From IMG/VR virus record IMGVR_UViG_3300045988_026856, positions 1 to 44,632 of that record: 44,632 nt of DNA; one strand, written 5' to 3'. Both the position numbers and the translations under genes were made by a program. The notes beneath the pieces are model-generated. The model saw only the letters and a program-made list of their open reading frames with translations, was not told the DNA's origin and searched no databases. Source of the stretch: a virus (lineage: Duplodnaviria; Heunggongvirae; Uroviricota; Caudoviricetes). Shown here one piece after another: positions 911 to 30,863 of this stretch (positions are counted from its first letter, which is position 1; every line of letters begins with the position of its first letter).

Positions 911-940
911 TTGAAAGTTCTTGACATGTGTTTGTATAAT
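911..940 (+). promoter_or_regulatory. sigma70-like promoter (TTGAAA-N18-TATAAT)
   Basis: Near-consensus hexamers; about 350 bp upstream of the first early ORF. Confidence 0.45.
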
Positions 941-967
941 GGTTTTGGGACTTGTATATATTACGGA

Positions 968-999
968 GTTGACGAACCCTCCCCGAGGGATTCGTCAAC
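968..999 (+). promoter_or_regulatory. long imperfect inverted repeat (GTTGACGAACCCTC...GAGGGATTCGTCAAC) just downstream of the 911..940 promoter
   Basis: About 14-bp stem with one bulge, read directly from sequence. Confidence 0.4.
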
Positions 1000-1139
1000 C
1001 CCTCCCAGACAGCTGAGATGCTTGCCCAACGGTTTAAGGATAAGTGTATCTAAATCTCATTTAAAGAAGTAACCAGCTGAAATATCTACTGTTTCTTAAT
1101 GTGCCGTAGATTCGCAACCGTAAAAATGTAACGATTATC

Positions 1140-1168
1140 GGGCGGGCCTTAAGGCCTGCCCTTTAGTT
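1140..1168 (+). terminator. putative intrinsic terminator (GGGCGGGCC-TTAA-GGCCTGCCC + TTTAGTT)
   Basis: 9-bp GC-rich stem (one G-U) followed by a U-rich tract, plus strand only. Confidence 0.45.
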
Positions 1169-1233
1169 ACCAAGTAATAAGAATAAAGGCACAACCCTAC
1201 CTGAAGAATCACAACGGCAACGTAACTATTCTC

Positions 1234-1262
1234 TTGCGCACCCCAACATAATAGGTTACTAT
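1234..1262 (+). promoter_or_regulatory. early promoter TTGCGC-N17-TACTAT with AATAG-N4-CTATT inverted repeat over the -10
   Basis: Near-identical copy at 21655..21683 (minus) and related copy at 2714..2742. Confidence 0.45.
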
Positions 1263-1296
1263 TCACTTATCGGAACGAAACAGAGGAGTGAGGGTT

Positions 1297-1476
1297 ATGT
1301 TTAAACGTGGTCAAATCGCACGAGATAACAACGGTTCTATTTATTCTATCCGTAGCATGGAGATTTTTAACGGGTTCTATCGTGTGCAGGATGTTGTTTC
1401 AGGTAAGGTGCTTGTACGCCATGCTTCCAATTTAAAGCTCATCGGCAACAATTTTAAATTCAAAGGGGTGGAGTGA
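1297..1476 (+). CDS. hypothetical early protein (59 aa)
   Basis: ORF track; start refined to ATG after GAGGAG RBS. Confidence 0.5.
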   Translation: MFKRGQIARDNNGSIYSIRSMEIFNGFYRVQDVVSGKVLVRHASNLKLIGNNFKFKGVE

Positions 1477-4891: not shown

Positions 4892-4966
4892 ACAACTATT
4901 AGGATAATTCCTACCCGTGGTATCCTCCAGTTACTGCATACTTAATACGCACCTGGAGGATTCATC

Positions 4967-5275
4967 TTGGATAAATTTACTGAAACAGTGACAGGCTGGC
5001 TTCTCGCTGCCGCGCTAGCCGGAGGGGTCATCGGACTACGACAACATAAGTCCGTTATTTCTGGACCCATCGACGGCTTATTCTTTATTGTAACCGGCTT
5101 CGCTTGCGCCGTATTCGGTGCGCCTCTCGCTGCCCAATGGTTCGGCATTACCGGGGAGCGTGAAATCGCTGGTCTGGGTTTCATCATCGCTATTCTCTGG
5201 ATGCCTATCTATTCCCGCCTCTCCGGTATCGTCGCCGGGGAATACATCTCACGTCGAGGAGGCCCGGATGAATGA
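4967..5275 (+). CDS. holin (3 predicted TM segments, charged C-terminus)
   Basis: TTG start after GGAGGA RBS; three hydrophobic helices; directly upstream of endolysin. Confidence 0.6.
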   Translation: MDKFTETVTGWLLAAALAGGVIGLRQHKSVISGPIDGLFFIVTGFACAVFGAPLAAQWFGITGEREIAGLGFIIAILWMPIYSRLSGIVAGEYISRRGGPDE

Positions 5276-5540
5276 GTTATTCTGGTTCGGCGGTATGCTG
5301 GCAATCGGGGGTACATCGCTGTTTAATGTGTACCATCCCAGCGTTGATGACGGGTTATTCGGTCGGGTGCTCTATATCCTGACTGCTATCGTCTGCGCCG
5401 CCGGATGTATCCACCTGTTACAGGGCAGCGTGTCACCAACGCTGCCTGAGACATTAATCACATTAGTTGCGCTGCGCCAGATTCGTCAGGCGTGGCTGTC
5501 ATACGGAGGACATAAGCGTGTCTCGAAATATTTCAGATAA
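5268..5540 (+). CDS. second holin-like / antiholin-like membrane protein (2 TM, 90 aa)
   Basis: ATG after GAGGAGG RBS, overlaps holin stop; two hydrophobic helices. Confidence 0.5.
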   Translation: MNELFWFGGMLAIGGTSLFNVYHPSVDDGLFGRVLYILTAIVCAAGCIHLLQGSVSPTLPETLITLVALRQIRQAWLSYGGHKRVSKYFR

Positions 5541-6003
5541 TGGACTGCATTTCACCGCCGCGTTCGAGGGGTTCCGTGGTACTGCATATCGTGCTACGCC
5601 AAATGAGAAGTACCTTACTATTGGATATGGGCATTACGGGCCGGACATAACACCGGGTAAGACCATCACGCCGGGACAGGGCCTTCTGTTACTGAATCGC
5701 GATATGGCTAAGGCCGTAGCCGCGGTTGACGCAGCGGCGCATCATTCATTGACACAGGCGCAGTTCGACGCCGTGTGCGACCTGGTCTATAACGCAGGTG
5801 CGGGTGTTATCGCGGCTACTACCGGCACCGGTAAGGCACTGCGCTCCGGTGATACCGCGACGCTGCGCGCTAAGCTGGCGCTGTTCATCAACCAGAACGG
5901 CAAACCATTACTCGGCTTGCGCCGCCGTACTGCGGGTCGTCTGGCGCTGTTCGACGGCAAACCGTGGCAAGAGGCTGAGGCTATCGGGAGGGCGGTTAAA
6001 TGA
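5518..6003 (+). CDS. endolysin, lysozyme-like (GH24-type)
   Basis: FEGFRGTAY...TIGYGH motif resembling phage lysozymes; probable GTG start after GGAGGA. Confidence 0.7.
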   Translation: MSRNISDNGLHFTAAFEGFRGTAYRATPNEKYLTIGYGHYGPDITPGKTITPGQGLLLLNRDMAKAVAAVDAAAHHSLTQAQFDAVCDLVYNAGAGVIAATTGTGKALRSGDTATLRAKLALFINQNGKPLLGLRRRTAGRLALFDGKPWQEAEAIGRAVK

Positions 6004-6092
6004 CAGAGATTGACTTCATTCTGTTGTCTATCGGAGTTGGTGCGGTAGTTGGCGCTTTCTGGGGTGCTATTGATGCGTTTCGCAAAGGTTGA
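6000..6092 (+). CDS. small hydrophobic peptide (30 aa)
   Basis: ATG overlapping endolysin stop; single TM-like segment. Confidence 0.3.
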   Translation: MTEIDFILLSIGVGAVVGAFWGAIDAFRKG

Positions 6093-11261: not shown

Positions 11262-11283
11262 AGCCCCGAAAGGGGCTTTCTTA
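11262..11283 (+). terminator. hairpin AGCCCC-GAAA-GGGGCT + TTCTTAT (possible attenuator)
   Basis: GC stem with weak U tract. Confidence 0.3.
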
Positions 11284-12364: not shown

Positions 12365-12825
12365 TGATGGGCTTTTTCAAAGTAACTGATGTACCGTCAC
12401 GCCGCGTAGTCCAGTACGCCCGCGTGTCTGGCTCCGGTGAGAACGTGGTATTTATTGAAGATGAAAGTGTACTCGGTATACCGGTAGATGATATGCCGTT
12501 TGCTGATAAAACCGGTATTGCACTACCTGCGGCGGGCATGCTTTATGAAATTCCGTATCTGGCGGACGCGGGAGACGTGTATTTCTCTGTGCAACCGAAA
12601 GACACCGAACTGGCGGATGGCAGTGCAACTATCACCGTCGAAGTTAAGGCCGGTAAAGCACCATACGCGCTGACCTGGTACAAAGACGGGAAGGAAGTAG
12701 TAAACGCACCCGAAGAGGCTTTGTCTCTGATGGTTAATGCGGTAGGTGAATACTTCGTTAAAGTCACCGATGCCGGTGGAGTGGAGGCTGTGAGTAAAGC
12801 GGCGAAGGTCACTAAGCCAGAATGA
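12364..12825 (+). CDS. Ig-like domain protein (153 aa)
   Basis: C-terminal SATITVEVKAGKAPYALTWYKDGKEV...GEYFVKVTDAGG Ig-like pattern. Confidence 0.55.
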   Translation: MMGFFKVTDVPSRRVVQYARVSGSGENVVFIEDESVLGIPVDDMPFADKTGIALPAAGMLYEIPYLADAGDVYFSVQPKDTELADGSATITVEVKAGKAPYALTWYKDGKEVVNAPEEALSLMVNAVGEYFVKVTDAGGVEAVSKAAKVTKPE

Positions 12826-12829
12826 TAAG

Positions 12830-12851
12830 AGGCCCCGAAAGGGGCTTTTTT
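12830..12851 (+). terminator. intrinsic terminator (GGCCCC-GAAA-GGGGCT + T6)
   Basis: GC stem then TTTTTT. Confidence 0.65.
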
Positions 12852-13168
12852 AATGTCTGTTATTATTCCAGTTATTCCGCTCAATTGTAAATGTTGGAAT
12901 AAACTATTCGAATAGTTGACTTTTCACTAAAAATATGATAAGCTCCACCTGAGCTTGTGAAGTATGAACAAGCGACCGCGGCGCGGGCAGGTAACGGAGC
13001 GGGACGTAAGTCCTGAGTGTAGTTACGCTGACGCGTTCGGAAGGGCCATATTCTATTGCTTGTGTAAAAAGTAACTGGTTTACTGAGATTACGCCGTTTC
13101 TATGTTTAAATGATAAGGACTAGCGCCCCGCTTTAAGGCGGGGCTTTACTTATCAAGAAAGGGGAAAC

Positions 13169-13555
13169 ATGAATCTTAAAGCAACTGTCGTAGCGGGGGC
13201 ATGTTTCATCGTCCTGGCTTACGCACATGGCATCTACCAGTACCACAGCGGCTGGAACGAAGGCCGGGCGAATCTCATTTCGCAGCAACAGCAGAAAGCA
13301 CAGGCTGAGTTAGTGAAGAAAACACAACGGCAGCAGCAGGACGAATCAAAGGCCGCAGCCGCTGACAACGAAGGCAAGACGAAATCAGAGGTGATTACCC
13401 GTGAAGTCGTTAAGTACATTAAAACGCCTGGTCGCAGCGTGTGCACTTTTGACACTGAGCGCGTGCAACTCAAGTCCCGCGCCGTCACCAACGCCAATTC
13501 CATCCCCGGATACGACAATGATGCAGCCGCCGTGCAAACTGGCCGCGCCAAGTAG
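13169..13555 (+). CDS. i-spanin (Rz-like): N-terminal TM, Q/K/E-rich periplasmic domain
   Basis: MNLKATVVAGACFIVLAYAHGIY TM segment followed by charged coiled-coil-like region; o-spanin overlaps its 3' part. Confidence 0.7.
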   Translation: MNLKATVVAGACFIVLAYAHGIYQYHSGWNEGRANLISQQQQKAQAELVKKTQRQQQDESKAAAADNEGKTKSEVITREVVKYIKTPGRSVCTFDTERVQLKSRAVTNANSIPGYDNDAAAVQTGRAK

Positions 13556-13664
13556 CGATGCCGACGAGGATTTGGCTATCGACGTCCAGAACGCCGAATG
13601 TGTACGGCAACTGAGGCTGAAAGTGTTCATGTTGCAGGATTACGTGAGGAATATTCTGGAATAG
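13401..13664 (+). CDS. o-spanin (Rz1-like lipoprotein), overlapping Rz in the +1 frame
   Basis: Signal peptide with lipobox LTLSAC, then proline-rich mature region; GTG start after GAGGTG. Confidence 0.65.
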   Translation: MKSLSTLKRLVAACALLTLSACNSSPAPSPTPIPSPDTTMMQPPCKLAAPSSDADEDLAIDVQNAECVRQLRLKVFMLQDYVRNILE

Positions 13665-13746
13665 TTGCCTTGCATGTTGGAATAATTTATTCTTGACATG
13701 TAAATCCGGGCGGCCCGGGTTCCAACGTCCAGGGGACATACTGACT

Positions 13747-14448
13747 ATGAATCGTTTTTTACGTTATCCGTTCCAGGAAGAAGCTGGGGCAGAAGATAAA
13801 GCCGGTGGTGGAGACGCGCCGAAAATGTTCACCGCTGAAGAAGTTCAGGCGCTGATTGAGAAAGAAGTCGCCGGGCTTAAGGCCAATCAGGAAGCGTTGC
13901 TGGCGGAGAAGAAAGAAGCCGCCCGTAAAGCAAAAGAGGCCGAAGAAGAACGTCAGCGCGCACACCAGGAGGCGTTAAAAGCCGCTGGTAAGATGGACGA
14001 GTTCGAAAAGACGATTCGTAGCCAGTATGACCCGGTGTTAGCCGAGAAAGATGGTCGCATCTCCAAAATGGCAGAGCGCATCCTCGGTAGCGAACGTAAA
14101 GCGGTGCTAGGCTCTTTCGCGGGTGACTTTATTACCCCGGAAGCAGTGGACATTCTTGCACCGTTCGTTAAGACTGAGTTCGAAGGCGATGACGTGGTTA
14201 CTAAGTTTGTCGGCGCAGATGGTAACGTAATCACGACTGACCCGGAACAGTTCCGTAAATATCTGCGTGAACACAAAGCGTTTTCGCATTTGATTAAAGC
14301 GAATGCAGCTTCCGGCGGCGGGGCTTCCGGTAGCAAAGGCGGCGGGGCCGCACAAGCGTTTAAAGACATGAGTGAAGCGGAGCGTTTAGCTCTGTACAAA
14401 TCGAACCCTGCCGAATTTGAACGGCAACTTAAAGCCCTGAGGAAATAA
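13747..14448 (+). CDS. scaffolding protein
   Basis: A/E/K-rich coiled-coil-like protein immediately upstream of the capsid gene; start refined to internal ATG. Confidence 0.55.
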   Translation: MNRFLRYPFQEEAGAEDKAGGGDAPKMFTAEEVQALIEKEVAGLKANQEALLAEKKEAARKAKEAEEERQRAHQEALKAAGKMDEFEKTIRSQYDPVLAEKDGRISKMAERILGSERKAVLGSFAGDFITPEAVDILAPFVKTEFEGDDVVTKFVGADGNVITTDPEQFRKYLREHKAFSHLIKANAASGGGASGSKGGGAAQAFKDMSEAERLALYKSNPAEFERQLKALRK

Positions 14449-19996: not shown

Positions 19997-20024
19997 AACT
20001 AAGGCCCCTTTCGGGGCCTTTTTC
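19997..20024. terminator. bidirectional terminator (AAGGCCCC-TTTC-GGGGCCTT, A-rich before, T-rich after)
   Basis: Perfect 8-bp stem between convergent genes. Confidence 0.65.
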
Positions 20025-27439: not shown

Positions 27440-27955
27440 ATGAGCCAGGAATCTGTAGAAGCCGCCTATCGCCGTAAGCTGGCCTCAAACCCCGACGGCG
27501 AGATGGACTACATCACGTTGCAAATCAGCCACCCGTTGCTGTCAAAGACGTACTATCTTGTGCGCGGGCTACAGGAACTTACGGCAACACTGGAGACAGG
27601 CGAAACAATAACATTCGAGCCAACCCCGATGGAGGCGTCGGGAGCGGCTAACAACAGTGATATGGACCAGACTACGACGTTTACTTTACCGGATATCCTC
27701 AATCAACTGGATGATGAGATGGATAAAATCCCGATGAGCAATACTGAGTTGCCTAAGTTCGTCTTCCGTCGTTATGTCAGCACCGACCTGTCTTACCCGG
27801 CTGACGGCCCTGTCGTGTACGAGTTACAGGCCATCAACCAGGAGAAGGGCGAGTTCTCCGCGGATGTCGGTACACCTATGCTGAACCAACGAAGCACTGG
27901 TATACTGATGACACCTAAAGAGATACCGTTATTACGCGGCCTGTTGACAACATGA
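27440..27955 (+). CDS. minor tail protein (171 aa)
   Basis: Position between gpM-like and gpK-like genes. Confidence 0.45.
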   Translation: MSQESVEAAYRRKLASNPDGEMDYITLQISHPLLSKTYYLVRGLQELTATLETGETITFEPTPMEASGAANNSDMDQTTTFTLPDILNQLDDEMDKIPMSNTELPKFVFRRYVSTDLSYPADGPVVYELQAINQEKGEFSADVGTPMLNQRSTGILMTPKEIPLLRGLLTT

Positions 27956-28317
27956 ATATTAACGACTACACGGGCATACCTTACGACTTTCGCAAGCGCA
28001 ATTGCTGGCATCATGTGCGAATTGTGCGGGCGGATGCCGGGTTAGAAACCCCGGCGTTCGACGTCACAAGCCCAACGGCAATTAATGAAGCGTTCGACGA
28101 AGGACATCGCAACACGAAGGGGCTTACGAAAATAGATAAGCCTGAAAACTTCTGTGCGGTGCTTATGGGGTATCGCCGTGGTGGTCGTATCGTGTGGCAC
28201 GCAGGAGTTTACTTCGACGGGATGGTTAGCCATTGCGAGCTTGCTTCTCGTCAGGTACGGCTTGACAGGCTGGCGGACCTCAGAGACACGTACACGGAGA
28301 TTGAATTTTGGCGATAA
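27952..28317 (+). CDS. NlpC/P60-family tail assembly protein (gpK-like)
   Basis: NCWHHVRIV ... HAGVYFDGMVSHCE Cys/His arrangement. Confidence 0.6.
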   Translation: MNINDYTGIPYDFRKRNCWHHVRIVRADAGLETPAFDVTSPTAINEAFDEGHRNTKGLTKIDKPENFCAVLMGYRRGGRIVWHAGVYFDGMVSHCELASRQVRLDRLADLRDTYTEIEFWR

Positions 28318-30863
28318 TCCTGCACTACACGCGAAACGCTGATGGCGCTTTCGACCGTACAAAACACGTCGGGATGCCGATGGAGTTTGTCGTTAACCGT
28401 ATCCCGGACGGCGTGCCGGTGCGCGTCTACCTCGGCGAAATTGGTGATGATACCGACGTAACTGACGACTTCGACGCACTCAAAGACGAAGACGCCGTGT
28501 ACCACATTATAGAGGGTGCTGGTAGCGGGGCGCTTGGTGCCGTTAGTAAGGTGTTTGGTTTTATCCTTAAGCCAATCGCTAAGTTGTTTGGTCTGAACAT
28601 GTCCGCAAACGCCAACTATACGGCGACTAACAACCAGACAACATCACCAAATAACAGCCTCGCAGACCGCTCAAACAAACCACGCCCTTACGAGCGCTCC
28701 TATGACATCTGCGGGACCGTGCAGACGATCCCTAATGACCTGATGCAGACGTATAAGGCGTTCAACTCCACTGGTGCTTTGCTGGAATATTCGTACTATG
28801 ACGCAGGGCGCGGACATCTGCATATTGAGGCTGATGGCGTCACAGAGGGCGACACCCTGATAAGCGACATCACAGGTTCCTCTGTTGCCATATATGCACC
28901 GTATACGTCACCGAACAACACCACATCGCCGCAACTACAAATCGGCGACGTCATTGACCAGAAACTCTATGCGACATACTCCAACGACGACGTTGACGGT
29001 ATTGTACTGAAAGCACCAAACGACATCGGGGCCAACCCAAGCTCCGGTGGAACCGCCAAACGTATTTCGACCACCGGCTACCTATATGACCCGTCGGGTG
29101 ATTCTGCTTTTTCTGAGTTTCTTAGTGTTGGTGATGTCGCAGTGTTGAGCAATTTCGACGTTAAGGACGTCACTAACCTAAACGGCTCGTTTGAAGTTTT
29201 ATACGTCGACGACTTTGAGGTTCGGTTGTACGTCGGGGATATAGGTAACTGGGGCAATCTTAATAACGGAGAGACTTACGCACTTACAGAGCGTTCTGAC
29301 ACGTTTATCGCCCCGAGCAACACCTATGACGTATCTCTTACGGACTGGTATTACATGGTGCGCGGAGAGGTTGACCGGGTGCTTGCTAACGTTGCCGGGC
29401 AGAACGGCCTCTACAAATACGACGGGGGCTATAACCGCACCAGTGTAACGGTGGAACTCCAGTACCAGATGATTGACTCCCAACGCAACCCTTTGAGCGA
29501 CATTTACACGGTACAGGCTACAATTACAGGCAACAGTACGGATTACGTCGGTACGTCTATCTACGGGCAGTTGCCGACCGCGTCTCGTTTCCGCGCCCGC
29601 ATGCGCCGTATAACTAATTTCGACAAGGACTACGACGGTACAGTAAGCGACGAGATAACGTTCATCAACCTGTACGGTCAGTCACTGGACACTACCCCGC
29701 ACTACGGCAACCGAACTACAGTACATTGCACCCGTAAACAGACACCACGCGCCGCCAGTATCGATAACCCTGAACTGCGCATGATTGCTACAGAGATGTG
29801 CTACAAATACCTCGGCAATGGGGTATTCGATACAGTAATGTCGCCAAACACTCAGGCCGTGCAGTCGCTAATCAGACTGGCTCGCGACCCGGCGGTGGGC
29901 AATCTGGAACTGACAACGGCAAACATGGATAAGTTGCTTGCCGTGCAGGAAGAAATTGAGTCCTATTTTGGCAGTGAATTAGCCGGACAATTCTGCTACA
30001 CGTTCGACGACTACGATACCACGATGCAGGACATAGTTCAGACCATAGCGGAAGCCGTATTCTGTACTGCGTACCGCAAAGGTGCAGATATTATGCTGCG
30101 ATTCGACCGTCCGGTTGCGGGGCCTGAAATGGTGTTCACCCACCGCAGTAAGACGACCGGTACGGAGAAATGGACACGCACGTTCAATGATTCGACAACC
30201 TACGATAGCTTGTCGTTCTCGTACATCGACCCGGATACTAACGTACAGGAAACGATTTATATCCCGGAAGAACTCGGCGCAAACACCGAGGAATACGAAT
30301 CGAAGGGCGTACGTAACTATCAGCAGGCGTATTGGCTGGCGTGGCGGCGCTACCAACGCAATGCGTTAAGTAAAGTTGTCGTAGAGTTCGAAGCTACCGA
30401 AGAAGGCGCTCTAGCTACTCCCGGCGGCGTAATCAGCGTGGTTAAAGGCTCCCGCATCGCGCCGCAGGATGGTTATGTTGTCGCCGTTAATGGGCTTGCG
30501 CTTACGCTGTCGCAGCCGGTTACGTTTACTCCAGGGGATGACCACTCCATCATTCTTAAGAAGCGAGACGGTTCGGTGCAGAGTATCTCTGTTATCAAAG
30601 GAAGCCATGACCGCGAGGTGATTATGCTCTCTGCGCCGGAGGAAGCCATCTACACAGGGAATAGTGCGCTAAAAACTGAGTTTTCATTCGGCAACGAAGC
30701 AAGGCATAATGCTCAGAAGATAGTTGTTTCTTCAATCGACCCCGGCGACGACCGCACGGTCAAGATTACTGGCTACAACTATGACGACGGATTCTATAAA
30801 TACGACGGCGTCGCGCCATACGGCAGCGGTTTCTCCGACGGATTCAGCAATGGTTTTAATTAA
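28308..30863 (+). CDS. tail tip / host-specificity protein (gpJ-like), 851 aa
   Basis: Large protein after M/L/K-like genes. Confidence 0.5.
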   Translation: MAIILHYTRNADGAFDRTKHVGMPMEFVVNRIPDGVPVRVYLGEIGDDTDVTDDFDALKDEDAVYHIIEGAGSGALGAVSKVFGFILKPIAKLFGLNMSANANYTATNNQTTSPNNSLADRSNKPRPYERSYDICGTVQTIPNDLMQTYKAFNSTGALLEYSYYDAGRGHLHIEADGVTEGDTLISDITGSSVAIYAPYTSPNNTTSPQLQIGDVIDQKLYATYSNDDVDGIVLKAPNDIGANPSSGGTAKRISTTGYLYDPSGDSAFSEFLSVGDVAVLSNFDVKDVTNLNGSFEVLYVDDFEVRLYVGDIGNWGNLNNGETYALTERSDTFIAPSNTYDVSLTDWYYMVRGEVDRVLANVAGQNGLYKYDGGYNRTSVTVELQYQMIDSQRNPLSDIYTVQATITGNSTDYVGTSIYGQLPTASRFRARMRRITNFDKDYDGTVSDEITFINLYGQSLDTTPHYGNRTTVHCTRKQTPRAASIDNPELRMIATEMCYKYLGNGVFDTVMSPNTQAVQSLIRLARDPAVGNLELTTANMDKLLAVQEEIESYFGSELAGQFCYTFDDYDTTMQDIVQTIAEAVFCTAYRKGADIMLRFDRPVAGPEMVFTHRSKTTGTEKWTRTFNDSTTYDSLSFSYIDPDTNVQETIYIPEELGANTEEYESKGVRNYQQAYWLAWRRYQRNALSKVVVEFEATEEGALATPGGVISVVKGSRIAPQDGYVVAVNGLALTLSQPVTFTPGDDHSIILKKRDGSVQSISVIKGSHDREVIMLSAPEEAIYTGNSALKTEFSFGNEARHNAQKIVVSSIDPGDDRTVKITGYNYDDGFYKYDGVAPYGSGFSDGFSNGFN

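What the first reader, a model, noticed from the sequence alone, without database searches (positions are those of the whole stretch)
12856..13664. Spanin pair placed in the head gene cluster, about 7 kb from the holin/endolysin cassette
The lysis cassette at 4967..6092 has two holin-like genes, an endolysin and a small TM peptide but no spanins. A typical overlapping i-spanin/o-spanin pair (TM + charged periplasmic domain; lipobox LTLSAC + proline-rich region) sits at 13169..13664 between head morphogenesis and scaffold genes. It is preceded by a terminator and a 310-bp noncoding region, and followed by a palindrome-rich region, which suggests a separately regulated unit. Both flanks share the motifs ATGTTGGAATAA and GAATAGTTG.
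Basis: partly seen in the sequence, partly recalled or inferred. Interest (0 to 1): 0.5.

Follow-up and report, generated by a model that had tools for sequence, protein, structure and literature searches.

The report
Spanin genes behind a structured leader
The two genes are a genuine, already catalogued pair of phage outer-membrane lysis proteins in their usual place for this phage family. The part not described before is the stretch in front of them, which holds a conserved promoter and a folded RNA leader.

Summary
The window is a Kagunavirus (K1G-like, Guernseyvirinae) genome. ORFs 13169-13555 and 13401-13664 are an overlapping i-spanin/o-spanin pair of the published 'Jersey' spanin family. 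The holin-holin-endolysin cassette at 4967-6000 has no spanin.

The placement between the Hoc-like and scaffold genes is not new. It is annotated in more than 200 GenBank phages, is shared with Dhillonvirus, and unlinked spanins are classic in T4.

The '310-bp noncoding region' is the interesting part:
- It contains operator-like GGAATAA/TTATTCC repeats, which recur downstream of the spanins.
- It has a conserved extended -10 sigma-70 promoter (-35 at 12916-21, -10 at 12939-44).
- It encodes a leader of about 225 nt whose first 105 nt (12945-13049) fold into two stem-loops. In 25 distinct sequences, 16 of 29 pairs show compensatory changes and 96% of cells are paired, against 29-44% in slid controls.
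- A GC hairpin (13125-44) sits just before the spanin ribosome-binding site.

The leader evolves 3-4 times more slowly than neighbouring third codon positions. It matches no Rfam family, and some records annotate it as a 36-aa ORF that is not conserved. In some relatives, but not in this window, a paralogous promoter-leader copy heads the operon that carries holin and endolysin.

Its function is unproven. My best guess is cis control of read-through or processing.

The parts
12831..12851 (+). Intrinsic terminator after the Hoc-like head decoration gene (GGCCCC-GAAA-GGGGC followed by TTTTTT)
   Evidence: Sequence. It folds at -16.0 kcal/mol. The same hairpin recurs at 11263 and 20004. Sciku annotates a terminator at the homologous site.
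12863..12918 (.). Operator-like repeat array: TTATTCC-AG-TTATTCC (12863-78), GGAATAAACTATTC (12896-12909), and the perfect 16-bp palindrome AACTATTCGAATAGTT (12902-17), which abuts the -35 hexamer
   Evidence: The array keeps the same layout in leader types A, B and C. Type E phages have a different repeat (TTGCGAG/CTCGCAA) in the same layout. Protein binding is inferred, not shown.
12916..12944 (+). Sigma-70 promoter of the extended -10 type: -35 TTGACT (12916-21), 17-nt spacer, TG (12936-37), -10 TAAGCT (12939-44)
   Evidence: The pattern T(T/A/G)GACT-N17 ending in TGn-TAnnCT is kept at the same spacing in types A, B and C and in second-locus copies, although the spacer sequence varies. The simple scan missed it because the -10 matches only 3 of 6 consensus positions. 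No transcription start site has been mapped.
12945..13049 (+). Structured 5' domain of the leader RNA. P0 hairpin: 12953-58 with 12968-73. Long three-part hairpin: P1 12976-85 with 13032-40, P2 12988-95 with 13022-30, P3 13000-05 with 13010-15, loop GUAA. A conserved single-stranded GGAAGGGCC follows (13039-47).
   Evidence: Covariance models R1 and R2 score it at 133 and 125 bits, and it is the only copy in the window. On 25 distinct sequences, 16 of 29 pairs carry compensatory changes and 96.2% of cells are paired, against 29-44% in slid controls and 0 of 500 shuffles. RNAalifold independently finds compensatory changes in 15 of 26 pairs. Single-sequence folds give the same architecture.
13050..13124 (+). 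AU-rich linker of the leader, with motifs conserved between types: CUAUUGCUU (13053-61) and GAUUACGCCGU (13087-97)
   Evidence: Nucleotide diversity is 0.02-0.06 within type A.
13125..13154 (+). GC-rich hairpin (GCCCCGCU-UUAA-GGCGGGGC, -17 kcal/mol) followed by UUUACUUAUC; possibly a leaky terminator or attenuator
   Evidence: Flagged as terminator-like and folded. The hairpin is kept with compensatory changes in type B (L036) and replaced by another GC hairpin in types C and D. The U-tract is not conserved.
13155..13168 (+). Ribosome-binding region AAGAAAGGGGAAAC in front of the i-spanin ATG
   Evidence: Sequence. It is conserved in types A and B.
13169..13555 (+). i-spanin gene (128 aa)
   Evidence: phrog_2536 'Rz-like spanin' E=3.6e-54. 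Transmembrane segment at aa 5-23. Annotated as spanin or i-spanin in K1G, Sciku and others.
13401..13664 (+). o-spanin gene (87 aa, GTG start, SD GAGGTGAT at 13388-95), overlapping the i-spanin gene in another frame
   Evidence: phrog_5672 E=3.2e-30 and phrog_1267 E=4.1e-20. Lipobox LSAC and a proline-rich segment. Member of the 'Jersey' overlapped spanin family in PMC6139136.
13647..13698 (.). Downstream repeat cluster: AGGAATATTCT (13647-57), GAATAGTTG (13659-67), ATGTTGGAATAATTTATTC (13674-92, palindrome GGAATAAtTTATTC), TTGACA (13693-98)
   Evidence: Conserved in types A and B. Nucleotide diversity of 13665-13746 is 0.019, the lowest in the region. No usable -10 follows the TTGACA.
13704..13720 (+). 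Conserved hairpin in the 5' untranslated region of the scaffold gene (AUCCGGG-CGG-CCCGGGU)
   Evidence: The stem covaries between type A (AUCCGGG/CCCGGAU) and type B (CACCGGG/CCCGGUG).

Best explanation
The region 12831-13746 is a self-contained expression unit inside the head-gene cluster of a Kagunavirus.

1. Transcripts from upstream stop at the Hoc terminator.
2. A sigma-70 extended -10 promoter (12916-44) starts a new transcript. The promoter is flanked by GGAATAA/TTATTCC repeats that most likely bind a phage-specified DNA-binding protein. A second repeat cluster lies 750-780 bp downstream.
3. The first ~225 nt of the transcript are a conserved, folded leader: a 5' hairpin P0, a long three-part hairpin P1-P3, single-stranded conserved motifs, and a GC hairpin with a weak U tract.
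4. The Jersey-family i-spanin/o-spanin pair follows. With no convincing terminator or promoter in between, the scaffold and major capsid genes probably follow on the same transcript.

The spanins fuse or disrupt the outer membrane after the unlinked holin and endolysin have acted.

I propose that the leader acts in cis on its own transcript. My most likely specific mechanism is control of how much RNA polymerase reads through the leader hairpin and later terminators, a role like an attenuator or like HK022 put.

Shown: the genes, the motifs, the conservation, the RNA structure, and the paralogous copy in relatives.
Inferred: promoter activity, protein binding to the repeats, co-transcription with the scaffold and capsid genes, and the leader's mechanism.

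I give about 0.6 to 'an autonomous unit with a functional cis-acting structured leader' and about 0.3 to the read-through mechanism specifically.
For: - Identity of the window and the spanins.
- Constraint on the leader: within 27 type A sequences nucleotide diversity is 0.038, against 0.16 (i-spanin) and 0.109 (scaffold) at third codon positions.
- The type A leader is 96-98% identical in loci whose neighbouring Hoc gene is 84-91% identical and whose i-spanin is 72-95% identical.
- Diverged homologues keep the promoter spacing, the hairpins and the ribosome-binding site but lose the 36-aa ORF.
- Structure: (16 of 29 pairs compensatory, 96% paired, slid controls 29-44%).
- Spread: the type A leader is in 181 GenBank phage records, type B in 269, and types D/C in 37. 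Almost all are unannotated.
- Paralogue: the same promoter and 5' domain stand in the divergent control region at the head of the rightward operon. In Sciku that operon runs through small genes to holin, holin and endolysin. The copy is present in Sciku, Golestan, fFiEco02, GZMU_E2010 and SHAK7858 and in about 12-16 of 46 IMG/VR contigs. The second-locus copies lack the GGAATAA repeats.
- Every leader type has a GC hairpin 170-250 nt downstream of the promoter.
- Several intrinsic terminators lie inside both long rightward operons.
Against: - No transcript, transcription start, protein-binding or termination data exist for any Guernseyvirinae phage.
- The U tract after the GC hairpin is poor and is not conserved in types B, C and D. 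The hairpin may therefore not terminate at all.
- The 5' domain is replaced by non-homologous modules in related phages and at this window's own second locus. That fits a generic role such as stability or processing as well as a specific one.
- Model R1 finds nothing in HK022, so there is no homology to put.
- No regulator for the GGAATAA repeats was identified.
- In types C and D a GAATAAATTATTCC copy lies inside coding sequence at the o-spanin start (output). Some copies may therefore be incidental.
Confidence: 0.6

Rival explanations
1. The long irregular P1-P3 hairpin (about 23 bp with internal loops) is an RNase III processing site, and P0 is a 5' stabiliser, as in T7 early and late mRNAs and the lambda N leader. 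The leader would then tune mRNA stability or translation of the spanin-scaffold-capsid message rather than transcription elongation.
For: The hairpin length and internal loops are seen. P0 begins 1-3 nt after the expected transcription start. Related phages swap in other modules that also carry long hairpins (window 968-1000, and type D), which is what a generic processing or stability signal would allow. The comparison with T7 and lambda RNase III sites comes from general knowledge, not from a test here.
Against: Unpaired nucleotides (GGAAGGGCC, CUAUUG, internal-loop residues) are as conserved as the stems. That is more than a generic RNase III site needs. No cleavage data exist.
Confidence: 0.2
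2. The promoter-to-hairpin segment (about 12950-13150) is a stand-alone, trans-acting small RNA of about 200 nt. It would be comparable to the lambdoid PR'-tR' short transcript (6S RNA, StxS), with the spanins expressed by read-through.
For: The segment has a strong promoter and ends in a GC hairpin followed by UUUACUUAUC, preceded by an AU-rich stretch. Its conservation is very high. A second copy with the same 5' domain exists in some relatives.
Against: The 3' hairpin tail is a poor terminator and is not conserved in types B, C and D. The ribosome-binding site and spanin ATG follow within 25 nt in every type. No conserved single-stranded seed with an identifiable target was found. The one long complementarity to the spanin coding region is not conserved.
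Confidence: 0.12
3. The shared flank motifs are leftovers of the insertion or duplication that brought a spanin cassette (a moron) into the head cluster. They would be recombination scars rather than protein-binding sites.
For: Direct repeats of 19 and 13 nt bracket the unit. The region is mosaic: type A leaders sit in Jersey-type backbones (L045, L056, L067). Golestan-type phages carry a ~570-bp insert between the terminator and the repeats.
Against: Dhillonvirus has the spanins in the same head-morphogenesis to scaffold position without the leader or repeats, so the placement is older than the repeats. Both clusters are among the most conserved sequence in the region (nucleotide diversity 0.02-0.03) and are palindromic. 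A different repeat in the same layout occurs in type E. The mosaic breakpoints lie at the leader/spanin junction, not at the repeats.
Confidence: 0.1
4. The region encodes the 36-aa protein annotated in some records (window 12964-13074), and its conservation reflects that protein.
For: The ORF exists and is annotated as a hypothetical protein with a ribosome-binding site in Sciku and others.
Against: There is no ATG or open frame in the homologous type B and type C sequences. It hits no PHROG or Pfam family. Substitutions pair up across helices instead of following codon periodicity. At the second locus annotators placed an ORF on the opposite strand over the same RNA domain (Sciku_053).
Confidence: 0.03

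Closest known systems
'Jersey' family of overlapped two-component spanins (Kongari et al. 2018, PMC6139136), functionally equivalent to lambda Rz/Rz1
   Same: The i-spanin has an N-terminal transmembrane segment. The o-spanin has a lipoprotein signal and a proline-rich segment, and its gene overlaps the i-spanin gene out of frame. The i-spanin protein is 88-97% identical in Kagunavirus phages. K1G, K1H and K1ind1-3 are listed as family members.
   Different: Nothing of substance; this is a family member. Function was not tested here (no complementation).
T4 pseT.3/pseT.2 (unlinked spanins) and the Dhillonvirus arrangement
   Same: The spanin genes lie far from the holin and endolysin genes (T4, as described in PMC6139136). 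Dhillonvirus phage GeorgBuechner has the spanins between the minor capsid (head morphogenesis) gene and the scaffold/capsid genes, the same synteny as here.
   Different: In Dhillonvirus the i-spanin gene abuts the preceding gene with no terminator, promoter or leader. A Klebsiella lambdoid phage has a 38% identical spanin in the classical Q-S-R-spanin cassette.
HK022 putL/putR antiterminator RNAs (PMC9378689)
   Same: Both are promoter-proximal RNA elements made of two stem-loops. Paralogous copies head two long operons that contain terminators (seen in relatives of this phage). Paired and unpaired residues are both strongly conserved.
   Different: There is no sequence or structure match: model R1 has no hit in HK022. 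The element here is 105 nt rather than about 70 nt. This window carries only one copy. Antitermination is untested. The resemblance is one of layout only.
Lambda PR' - 6S RNA - tR' late leader with Q antitermination
   Same: A promoter is followed by a ~200-nt non-coding leader that ends in a hairpin, directly upstream of lysis genes and then head genes.
   Different: No Q-like gene is annotated in curated relatives. The lambda leader is not a conserved structured RNA. The hairpin here has a weak U tract.
RNase III processing hairpins of T7 and lambda mRNAs
   Same: A long irregular hairpin with internal loops lies in a phage mRNA leader.
   Different: No cleavage evidence exists. The comparison rests on general knowledge.

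Membership tests
Two-component spanin: i-spanin | Single N-terminal transmembrane segment with a mostly charged or helical periplasmic domain | tested here: met
   Hydrophobic segment at aa 5-23 (Kyte-Doolittle 1.71); 28% charged residues after aa 25.
Two-component spanin: i-spanin | Sequence membership in a recognised spanin family | tested here: met
   phrog_2536 'Rz-like spanin' E=3.6e-54 over the full length. Pfam gives only a sub-threshold DUF2514 hit.
Two-component spanin: o-spanin | Lipoprotein signal peptide with a lipobox Cys, no Asp at +2, and a short proline-rich mature part | tested here: met
   MKSLSTLKRLVAACALLTLSAC|N...; lipobox LSAC at aa 19-22; 24% Pro after the Cys. phrog_5672 and phrog_1267. 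No dedicated signal-peptide predictor was available.
Two-component spanin | o-spanin gene embedded in, overlapping or adjacent to the i-spanin gene | tested here: met
   13401-13664 overlaps 13169-13555 in another frame. This is the 'overlapped' class of PMC6139136.
Two-component spanin | Required for outer-membrane disruption (complements lambda Rz/Rz1) | not testable with these tools
   Needs a complementation or lysis assay.
HK022 put-type antiterminator RNA | Two stem-loops transcribed close to the promoter | tested here: met
   P0 and P1-P3 start directly after the -10 hexamer and are supported by covariation. The put features come from PMC9378689.
HK022 put-type antiterminator RNA | Paralogous copies downstream of the promoters of two operons in the same genome | tested here: not met
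   This window has a single copy. Two copies occur in Sciku, Golestan, fFiEco02, GZMU_E2010 and SHAK7858, and in about 12-16 of 46 IMG/VR contigs.
HK022 put-type antiterminator RNA | Sequence or structure homology to putL/putR | tested here: not met
   Model R1 gives no hit in the HK022 genome at E<=10. Rfam has no family covering the region searched, HK022 27500-30100, which I took to hold the early control (PL/PR) region; the put sites were not located in the record, so this is indirect.
HK022 put-type antiterminator RNA | Makes RNA polymerase resistant to terminators in cis, dependent on the beta' zinc-binding domain | not testable with these tools
   Needs in vitro transcription or rpoC mutants.
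Intrinsic terminator (13125-13154) | GC-rich stem followed by a U tract | tested here: inconclusive
   The stem is strong (8 bp, 7 GC, -17 kcal/mol) and was flagged by the scan. The tail UUUACUUAUC is interrupted, and the tails in types B, C and D are poorer.
Any Rfam 15 family | Score at or above the gathering threshold | tested here: not met
   No hits in the whole window. The best hits in 12800-13800 have E>=2.5.
Sigma-70 extended -10 promoter | -35 TTGACA-like hexamer, 17±1 spacer, TGn, -10 TAnnnT | tested here: met
   TTGACT-17 nt (ending TGA)-TAAGCT, with the key positions conserved across types and loci. Activity was not tested.
RNase III processing site | Double-stranded region of roughly 20 bp or more, often with an internal loop | tested here: met
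   P1+P2+P3 add up to 23 pairs with internal loops. Cleavage cannot be tested here.

The most novel reading that the evidence does not exclude
The 105-nt two-hairpin domain is a new class of promoter-proximal regulatory RNA in virulent siphoviruses. It would act on the transcribing polymerase, either put-like and protein-independent or nut-like with a phage factor. It would be deployed at the heads of the two rightward operons, so that the physically split lysis genes (holin/endolysin and spanins) and the head genes come on together.
Probability: 0.2. Interest if true: 0.7.

Novelty: new variant of a known kind. Interest (0 to 1): 0.42.

Why it matters
The spanin pair and its position add nothing new, because both are already annotated and catalogued.

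The value lies in the control region. About 490 sequenced Escherichia and Salmonella phages, many of them therapy candidates, carry this conserved, covariation-supported leader RNA. It matches no Rfam family. It is left blank in most annotations or called a small hypothetical protein, and at the second locus it is annotated on the wrong strand.

If the leader controls read-through or processing, it would explain how a phage with a split lysis cassette coordinates spanin, scaffold and capsid expression. It would also add an RNA-based control element to a group of phages whose gene regulation is essentially unstudied. At the least it corrects annotations and provides a ready covariance model.

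Tried and rejected
- Rfam (whole window at gathering threshold, 12800-13800 at E<=10) and ARAGORN found nothing.
- The 36-aa ORF is rejected as a gene.
- A 22-nt complementarity between the leader hairpin (12990-13011) and the spanin coding region (13468-13489) looked like a possible long-range pairing. It is absent in type B, C and D phages and is treated as chance. A whole-length duplexfold run was uninformative.
- The genome-contig scan for the P1...GGAAGGG pattern returned 27 matches in unrelated, mostly high-GC bacteria or MAGs. The model does not support them (only L219 gave a weak hit, 19 bits, E=0.15). It also returned one Jersey-phage fragment contaminating a Taishania assembly.
- MAFFT alone misaligned types A and B, and mafft-qinsi is not installed. 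Structure-aware alignment was therefore done through covariance models. Such alignments lean towards the model, so I also report the slid controls and an independent RNAalifold run.
- Models R1 and R2 do not significantly detect type C, D or E leaders or this window's second-locus leader. The best type D hits fall at the right place but only at E≈0.8-8.
- An RcsB-box reading of AGGAATATTCT, recalled from memory, was checked. The degenerate consensus is not enriched (4 matches against 1.7 expected; 5 of 100 shuffles reach 4). I dropped it.
- Literature searches found no transcriptome or ncRNA study of Guernseyvirinae.
- No candidate regulator for the GGAATAA repeats was identified. The Cro-like and HTH_17 genes are only names from the annotation.
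Full report
**What the window is.** The stretch 12700-13800 matches 223 phage records, and 178 of them cover at least 80% of it. They are Escherichia Kagunavirus and Salmonella Jerseyvirus phages, and the best match is Kagunavirus 536P11 at 96.9%. The window is therefore a K1G-like Guernseyvirinae siphovirus genome. The curated relative Sciku has the same gene order: terminase, portal, head morphogenesis, Ig-like (Hoc-like) protein, terminator, i-spanin, o-spanin, scaffold, major capsid.

**Checking the observation.**
The i-spanin hits phrog_2536 'Rz-like spanin' (E=3.6e-54). The o-spanin hits phrog_5672 and phrog_1267.
- The i-spanin has one hydrophobic segment at aa 5-23. The o-spanin has a signal peptide ending in lipobox LSAC, Asn at +2, and a proline-rich segment.
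- The cassette at 4967-6000 is holin, holin and lysozyme, followed by a 30-aa hydrophobic peptide. None of these hits a spanin family.
- The Hoc-like gene is followed by a strong terminator at 12831-12851.
- The two shared motifs each occur exactly twice in 44.6 kb, once in each flank. They extend to 19-nt and 13-nt repeats. Sharing on this scale is rare in composition-matched shuffles of the flanks: 1 of 2000 for the 12-mer and 0 of 2000 for seven shared 8-mers.

**Is the placement unusual?** No.
- The pair is annotated as 'Rz-like spanin', 'putative spanin' or 'i-spanin/o-spanin' between the Hoc-like and scaffold genes in K1G, K1H, K1ind1-3, Golestan, Sciku and many others.
- The Golestan paper lists ORF7/8 as spanins apart from the holin-endolysin genes ORF66-68 (PMC7203180).
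- The spanin census of Kongari et al. places K1G, K1H, K1ind1-3 and the Jersey-like phages in one 27-member 'Jersey' family of overlapped spanins. It also presents T4 pseT.3/pseT.2 as the textbook case of spanins unlinked to holin and endolysin (PMC6139136).
- The i-spanin has relatives in 665 phage records.
- In Dhillonvirus (GeorgBuechner) the pair sits in the same place, directly after the minor capsid gene and before the scaffold/capsid genes, with no intergenic leader.
- A Klebsiella lambdoid phage has a 38% identical spanin in the classical Q-holin-lysozyme-spanin cassette.
- The synteny is therefore old and known.

**The '310-bp noncoding region' is under strong constraint.**
- As a BLAST query it is 95-99% identical in 167 of 181 matching records. 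This includes Salmonella phages whose flanking genes are much more diverged.
- In 70 IMG/VR loci anchored on the capsid gene, the leader is 96-98% identical. In the same loci the Hoc gene is 84-91% identical and the i-spanin 72-95%.
- Within 27 type A sequences, nucleotide diversity is 0.038 in the leader and 0.019 in the spanin-scaffold spacer. At third codon positions it is 0.16 (i-spanin) and 0.109 (scaffold).

**Diverged versions show what is being conserved.** I found several leader types in the same position:
- A: Kagunavirus, including this window.
- B: Jerseyvirus.
- C and D: phages with more distant spanins.
- E: phages with no Hoc gene.

All types keep these features:
- A repeat-rich region upstream.
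- A -35-like hexamer, with TGn-TAnnnT placed 17 nt downstream of it. Type D instead has TGTATAAT, with no base between TG and the -10 hexamer.
- A small hairpin followed by a long composite hairpin.
- An AU-rich stretch, with short shared motifs such as CUAUUGCUU and GCCGU.
- A GC-rich hairpin.
- A strong ribosome-binding site and the i-spanin ATG.

The 36-aa ORF annotated in Sciku (window 12964-13074) has no start codon in types B and C and hits no protein family. It is not a gene.

**RNA structure.**
- Single-sequence folds of types A, B and D give the same architecture.
- On ten type A variants, the proposed structure has 97% of cells paired against 29-38% when partners are slid, and four pairs show double changes.
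- A covariance model of the first 105 nt (R1) finds exactly one copy in the window (12945-13049, 133 bits). It also finds all type A and type B loci.
- On the resulting alignment of 20 distinct sequences, 14 of 29 pairs show compensatory changes.
- Adding second-locus copies (see below) gives 25 distinct sequences. On these, 16 of 29 pairs have compensatory changes and 96.2% of cells are paired, against 29-44% in slid controls. None of 500 shuffles reaches the observed score.
- RNAalifold run on the same alignment predicts essentially the same fold, with 15 of 26 pairs compensated.
- The alignment was fitted to the model, so these numbers lean towards the structure. The within-type changes visible in plain MAFFT alignments make the same point. 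Examples are GGGAC/GUCC to GUGC/GCAC, GUAAC/GUUAC to GGAAC/GUUCC, and C-G to U-A to A-U in P1.
- No Rfam family matches, and there is no tRNA or tmRNA.

**A paralogous copy in relatives.**
- R1 unexpectedly hit a second site in Sciku (53 bits, E=1e-8). That site is annotated there as a 35-aa minus-strand ORF, CPT_Sciku_053.
- The site lies in the divergent control region next to an HTH gene. It stands at the head of the rightward operon that runs through small genes to the protease-like gene, both holins and the endolysin.
- The second site has the same promoter, P0 and P1, then diverges.
- Full copies at this second locus occur in GZMU_E2010, SHAK7858, fFiEco02 and Golestan (55-111 bits). About 40 GenBank records carry one.
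- A pattern scan of IMG/VR found 58 matches (56 stretches) in 46 contigs, all 4.5-45 kb and mostly 40-45 kb. Every match I inspected was a type A, type B or second-locus variant, and 12 contigs have two copies.
- Spanin-locus copies have 1-3 GGAATAA-type motifs within 140 nt upstream. Second-locus copies have none.
- The GZMU_E2010 second-locus variant is identical to the unusual spanin-leader variant of locus L007. This suggests exchange between the two loci.
- This window has only the spanin-locus copy (R2 with filters off: 125 bits, next best 9.6 bits).
- The window's own second locus (about 911-1297) has a different 5' module with the same general design. It has a promoter (TTGAAA-18 nt-TATAAT), a long hairpin at 968-1000, a GC hairpin at 1141-1163 followed by UUUAGUUACC, and then a conserved 3' part.

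**The repeats.**
- Upstream of the promoter lie TTATTCC-AG-TTATTCC, then GGAATAAaCTATTC and a perfect 16-bp palindrome touching the -35 hexamer.
- Downstream of the spanins lie AGGAATATTCT, GGAATAG and GGAATAAtTTATTC.
- The layout is kept in types A, B and C, and both clusters are highly conserved.
- Type E phages carry a different repeat (CTCGCAA/TTGCGAG) in the same layout of two direct copies plus a palindrome next to the -10. This is the pattern expected of operator-regulator pairs that change specificity together.
- I therefore read the repeats as binding sites for a phage-specified protein. This is inference; no regulator was identified.
- The downstream cluster has no usable -10 after its TTGACA. 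It may act as a second operator (looping or roadblock) rather than as a promoter.

**How it probably works.**
- Shown: the genes, the motifs, the conservation, the RNA fold, and the two-locus distribution in relatives.
- Inferred: the unit is transcribed from 12916-44 under control of the repeats, and the leader acts in cis.
- The leader's position right at the promoter, its two stem-loops, the conservation of its unpaired residues, the GC hairpin that follows, the paralogous copy heading another long operon, and the several intrinsic terminators inside both operons recall HK022 putL/putR as described in PMC9378689. They also recall the lambda PR'-tR' leader.
- I therefore favour control of transcriptional read-through, at about 0.3.
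- This is only a resemblance of layout. R1 finds nothing in HK022. Rfam holds no put model to compare with. The U tract is weak and not conserved. Non-homologous modules replace the domain in related phages.
- An RNase III or stability role (about 0.2) and a stand-alone small RNA (about 0.12) remain open.

**Verdict.** The genuinely new content is a conserved, structured, unannotated promoter-leader module, which I score as of moderate interest.

Noticed in passing
window 911-1297: The divergent control region at the head of the rightward operon, which contains the holins and endolysin further downstream, has its own long leader. It comprises a promoter (TTGAAA 911-916, 18-nt spacer, TATAAT 935-940), a long hairpin at about 968-1000, and a GC hairpin at 1141-1163 followed by UUUAGUUACC. 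The 3' part is conserved: 1077-1190 in 335 phage records and about 1190-1297 shared with Sciku. The 5' part occurs in only about 21 records and resembles the promoter of type D spanin leaders (CTTGACAnnTnTTTGTATAATG). In some relatives this slot holds a paralogue of the spanin leader.
   Followed up: partly
window 13704-13720: A hairpin lies just upstream of the scaffold gene's ribosome-binding site. Its stem changes are compensatory between Kagunavirus and Jerseyvirus, and it sits in the most conserved stretch of the region (nucleotide diversity 0.019). It could be a translational operator for the scaffold gene, but this was not examined further.
   Followed up: partly
L002 (Golestan) 1722-2164; window equivalent between 12851 and 12863: Golestan, SCS44, XY2 and SZH-1 carry a ~570-bp insert with two minus-strand ORFs (114 and 33 aa) between the Hoc terminator and the repeat array. 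The window has a minus-strand promoter-like site there (12891 to 12862). The spot appears to be an insertion hot spot with a bidirectional control region.
   Followed up: no
L193 22132-22239 (Sciku CPT_Sciku_053) and L001 5621-5731 (CPT_Sciku_007): Two small 'hypothetical protein' genes in a curated GenBank record lie exactly over the two copies of the structured RNA domain, one on each strand. They are probably mis-annotations.
   Followed up: yes
window 11263-11279, 12832-12848, 20004-20019: The same terminator hairpin, GGCCCCGAAAGGGGC(T), is reused three times in the structural region: after the portal gene, after the Hoc-like gene, and as a bidirectional terminator after the tail tube gene.
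   Followed up: no
L045, L056, L067 (IMG/VR Jersey-type contigs): These are mosaic genomes. The Hoc gene and a type A leader (96% identical to the window) are joined to Jersey-type spanin and scaffold genes (72-82% identical). The breakpoint is at the leader/i-spanin junction.
   Followed up: partly
L221 (NZ_JACVEL010000048.1, 738 bp, Taishania pollutisoli assembly): This short contig in a Bacteroidota genome assembly is a fragment of a Jersey-type Salmonella phage (end of the Hoc gene, type B leader, start of the i-spanin). It is almost certainly contamination.
   Followed up: yes
window 4900-4913: An inverted repeat, TAGGA-TAAT-TCCTA, lies about 55 nt upstream of the first holin gene. It fits an RcsB-box consensus that I recalled from memory, but that consensus is not enriched in the window (4 matches against 1.7 expected).
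   Followed up: partly
window 6000-6092: A 30-aa hydrophobic peptide gene overlaps the endolysin stop codon. It gives only weak hits (phrog_23152, E=0.006) and its role in lysis is unknown.
   Followed up: no
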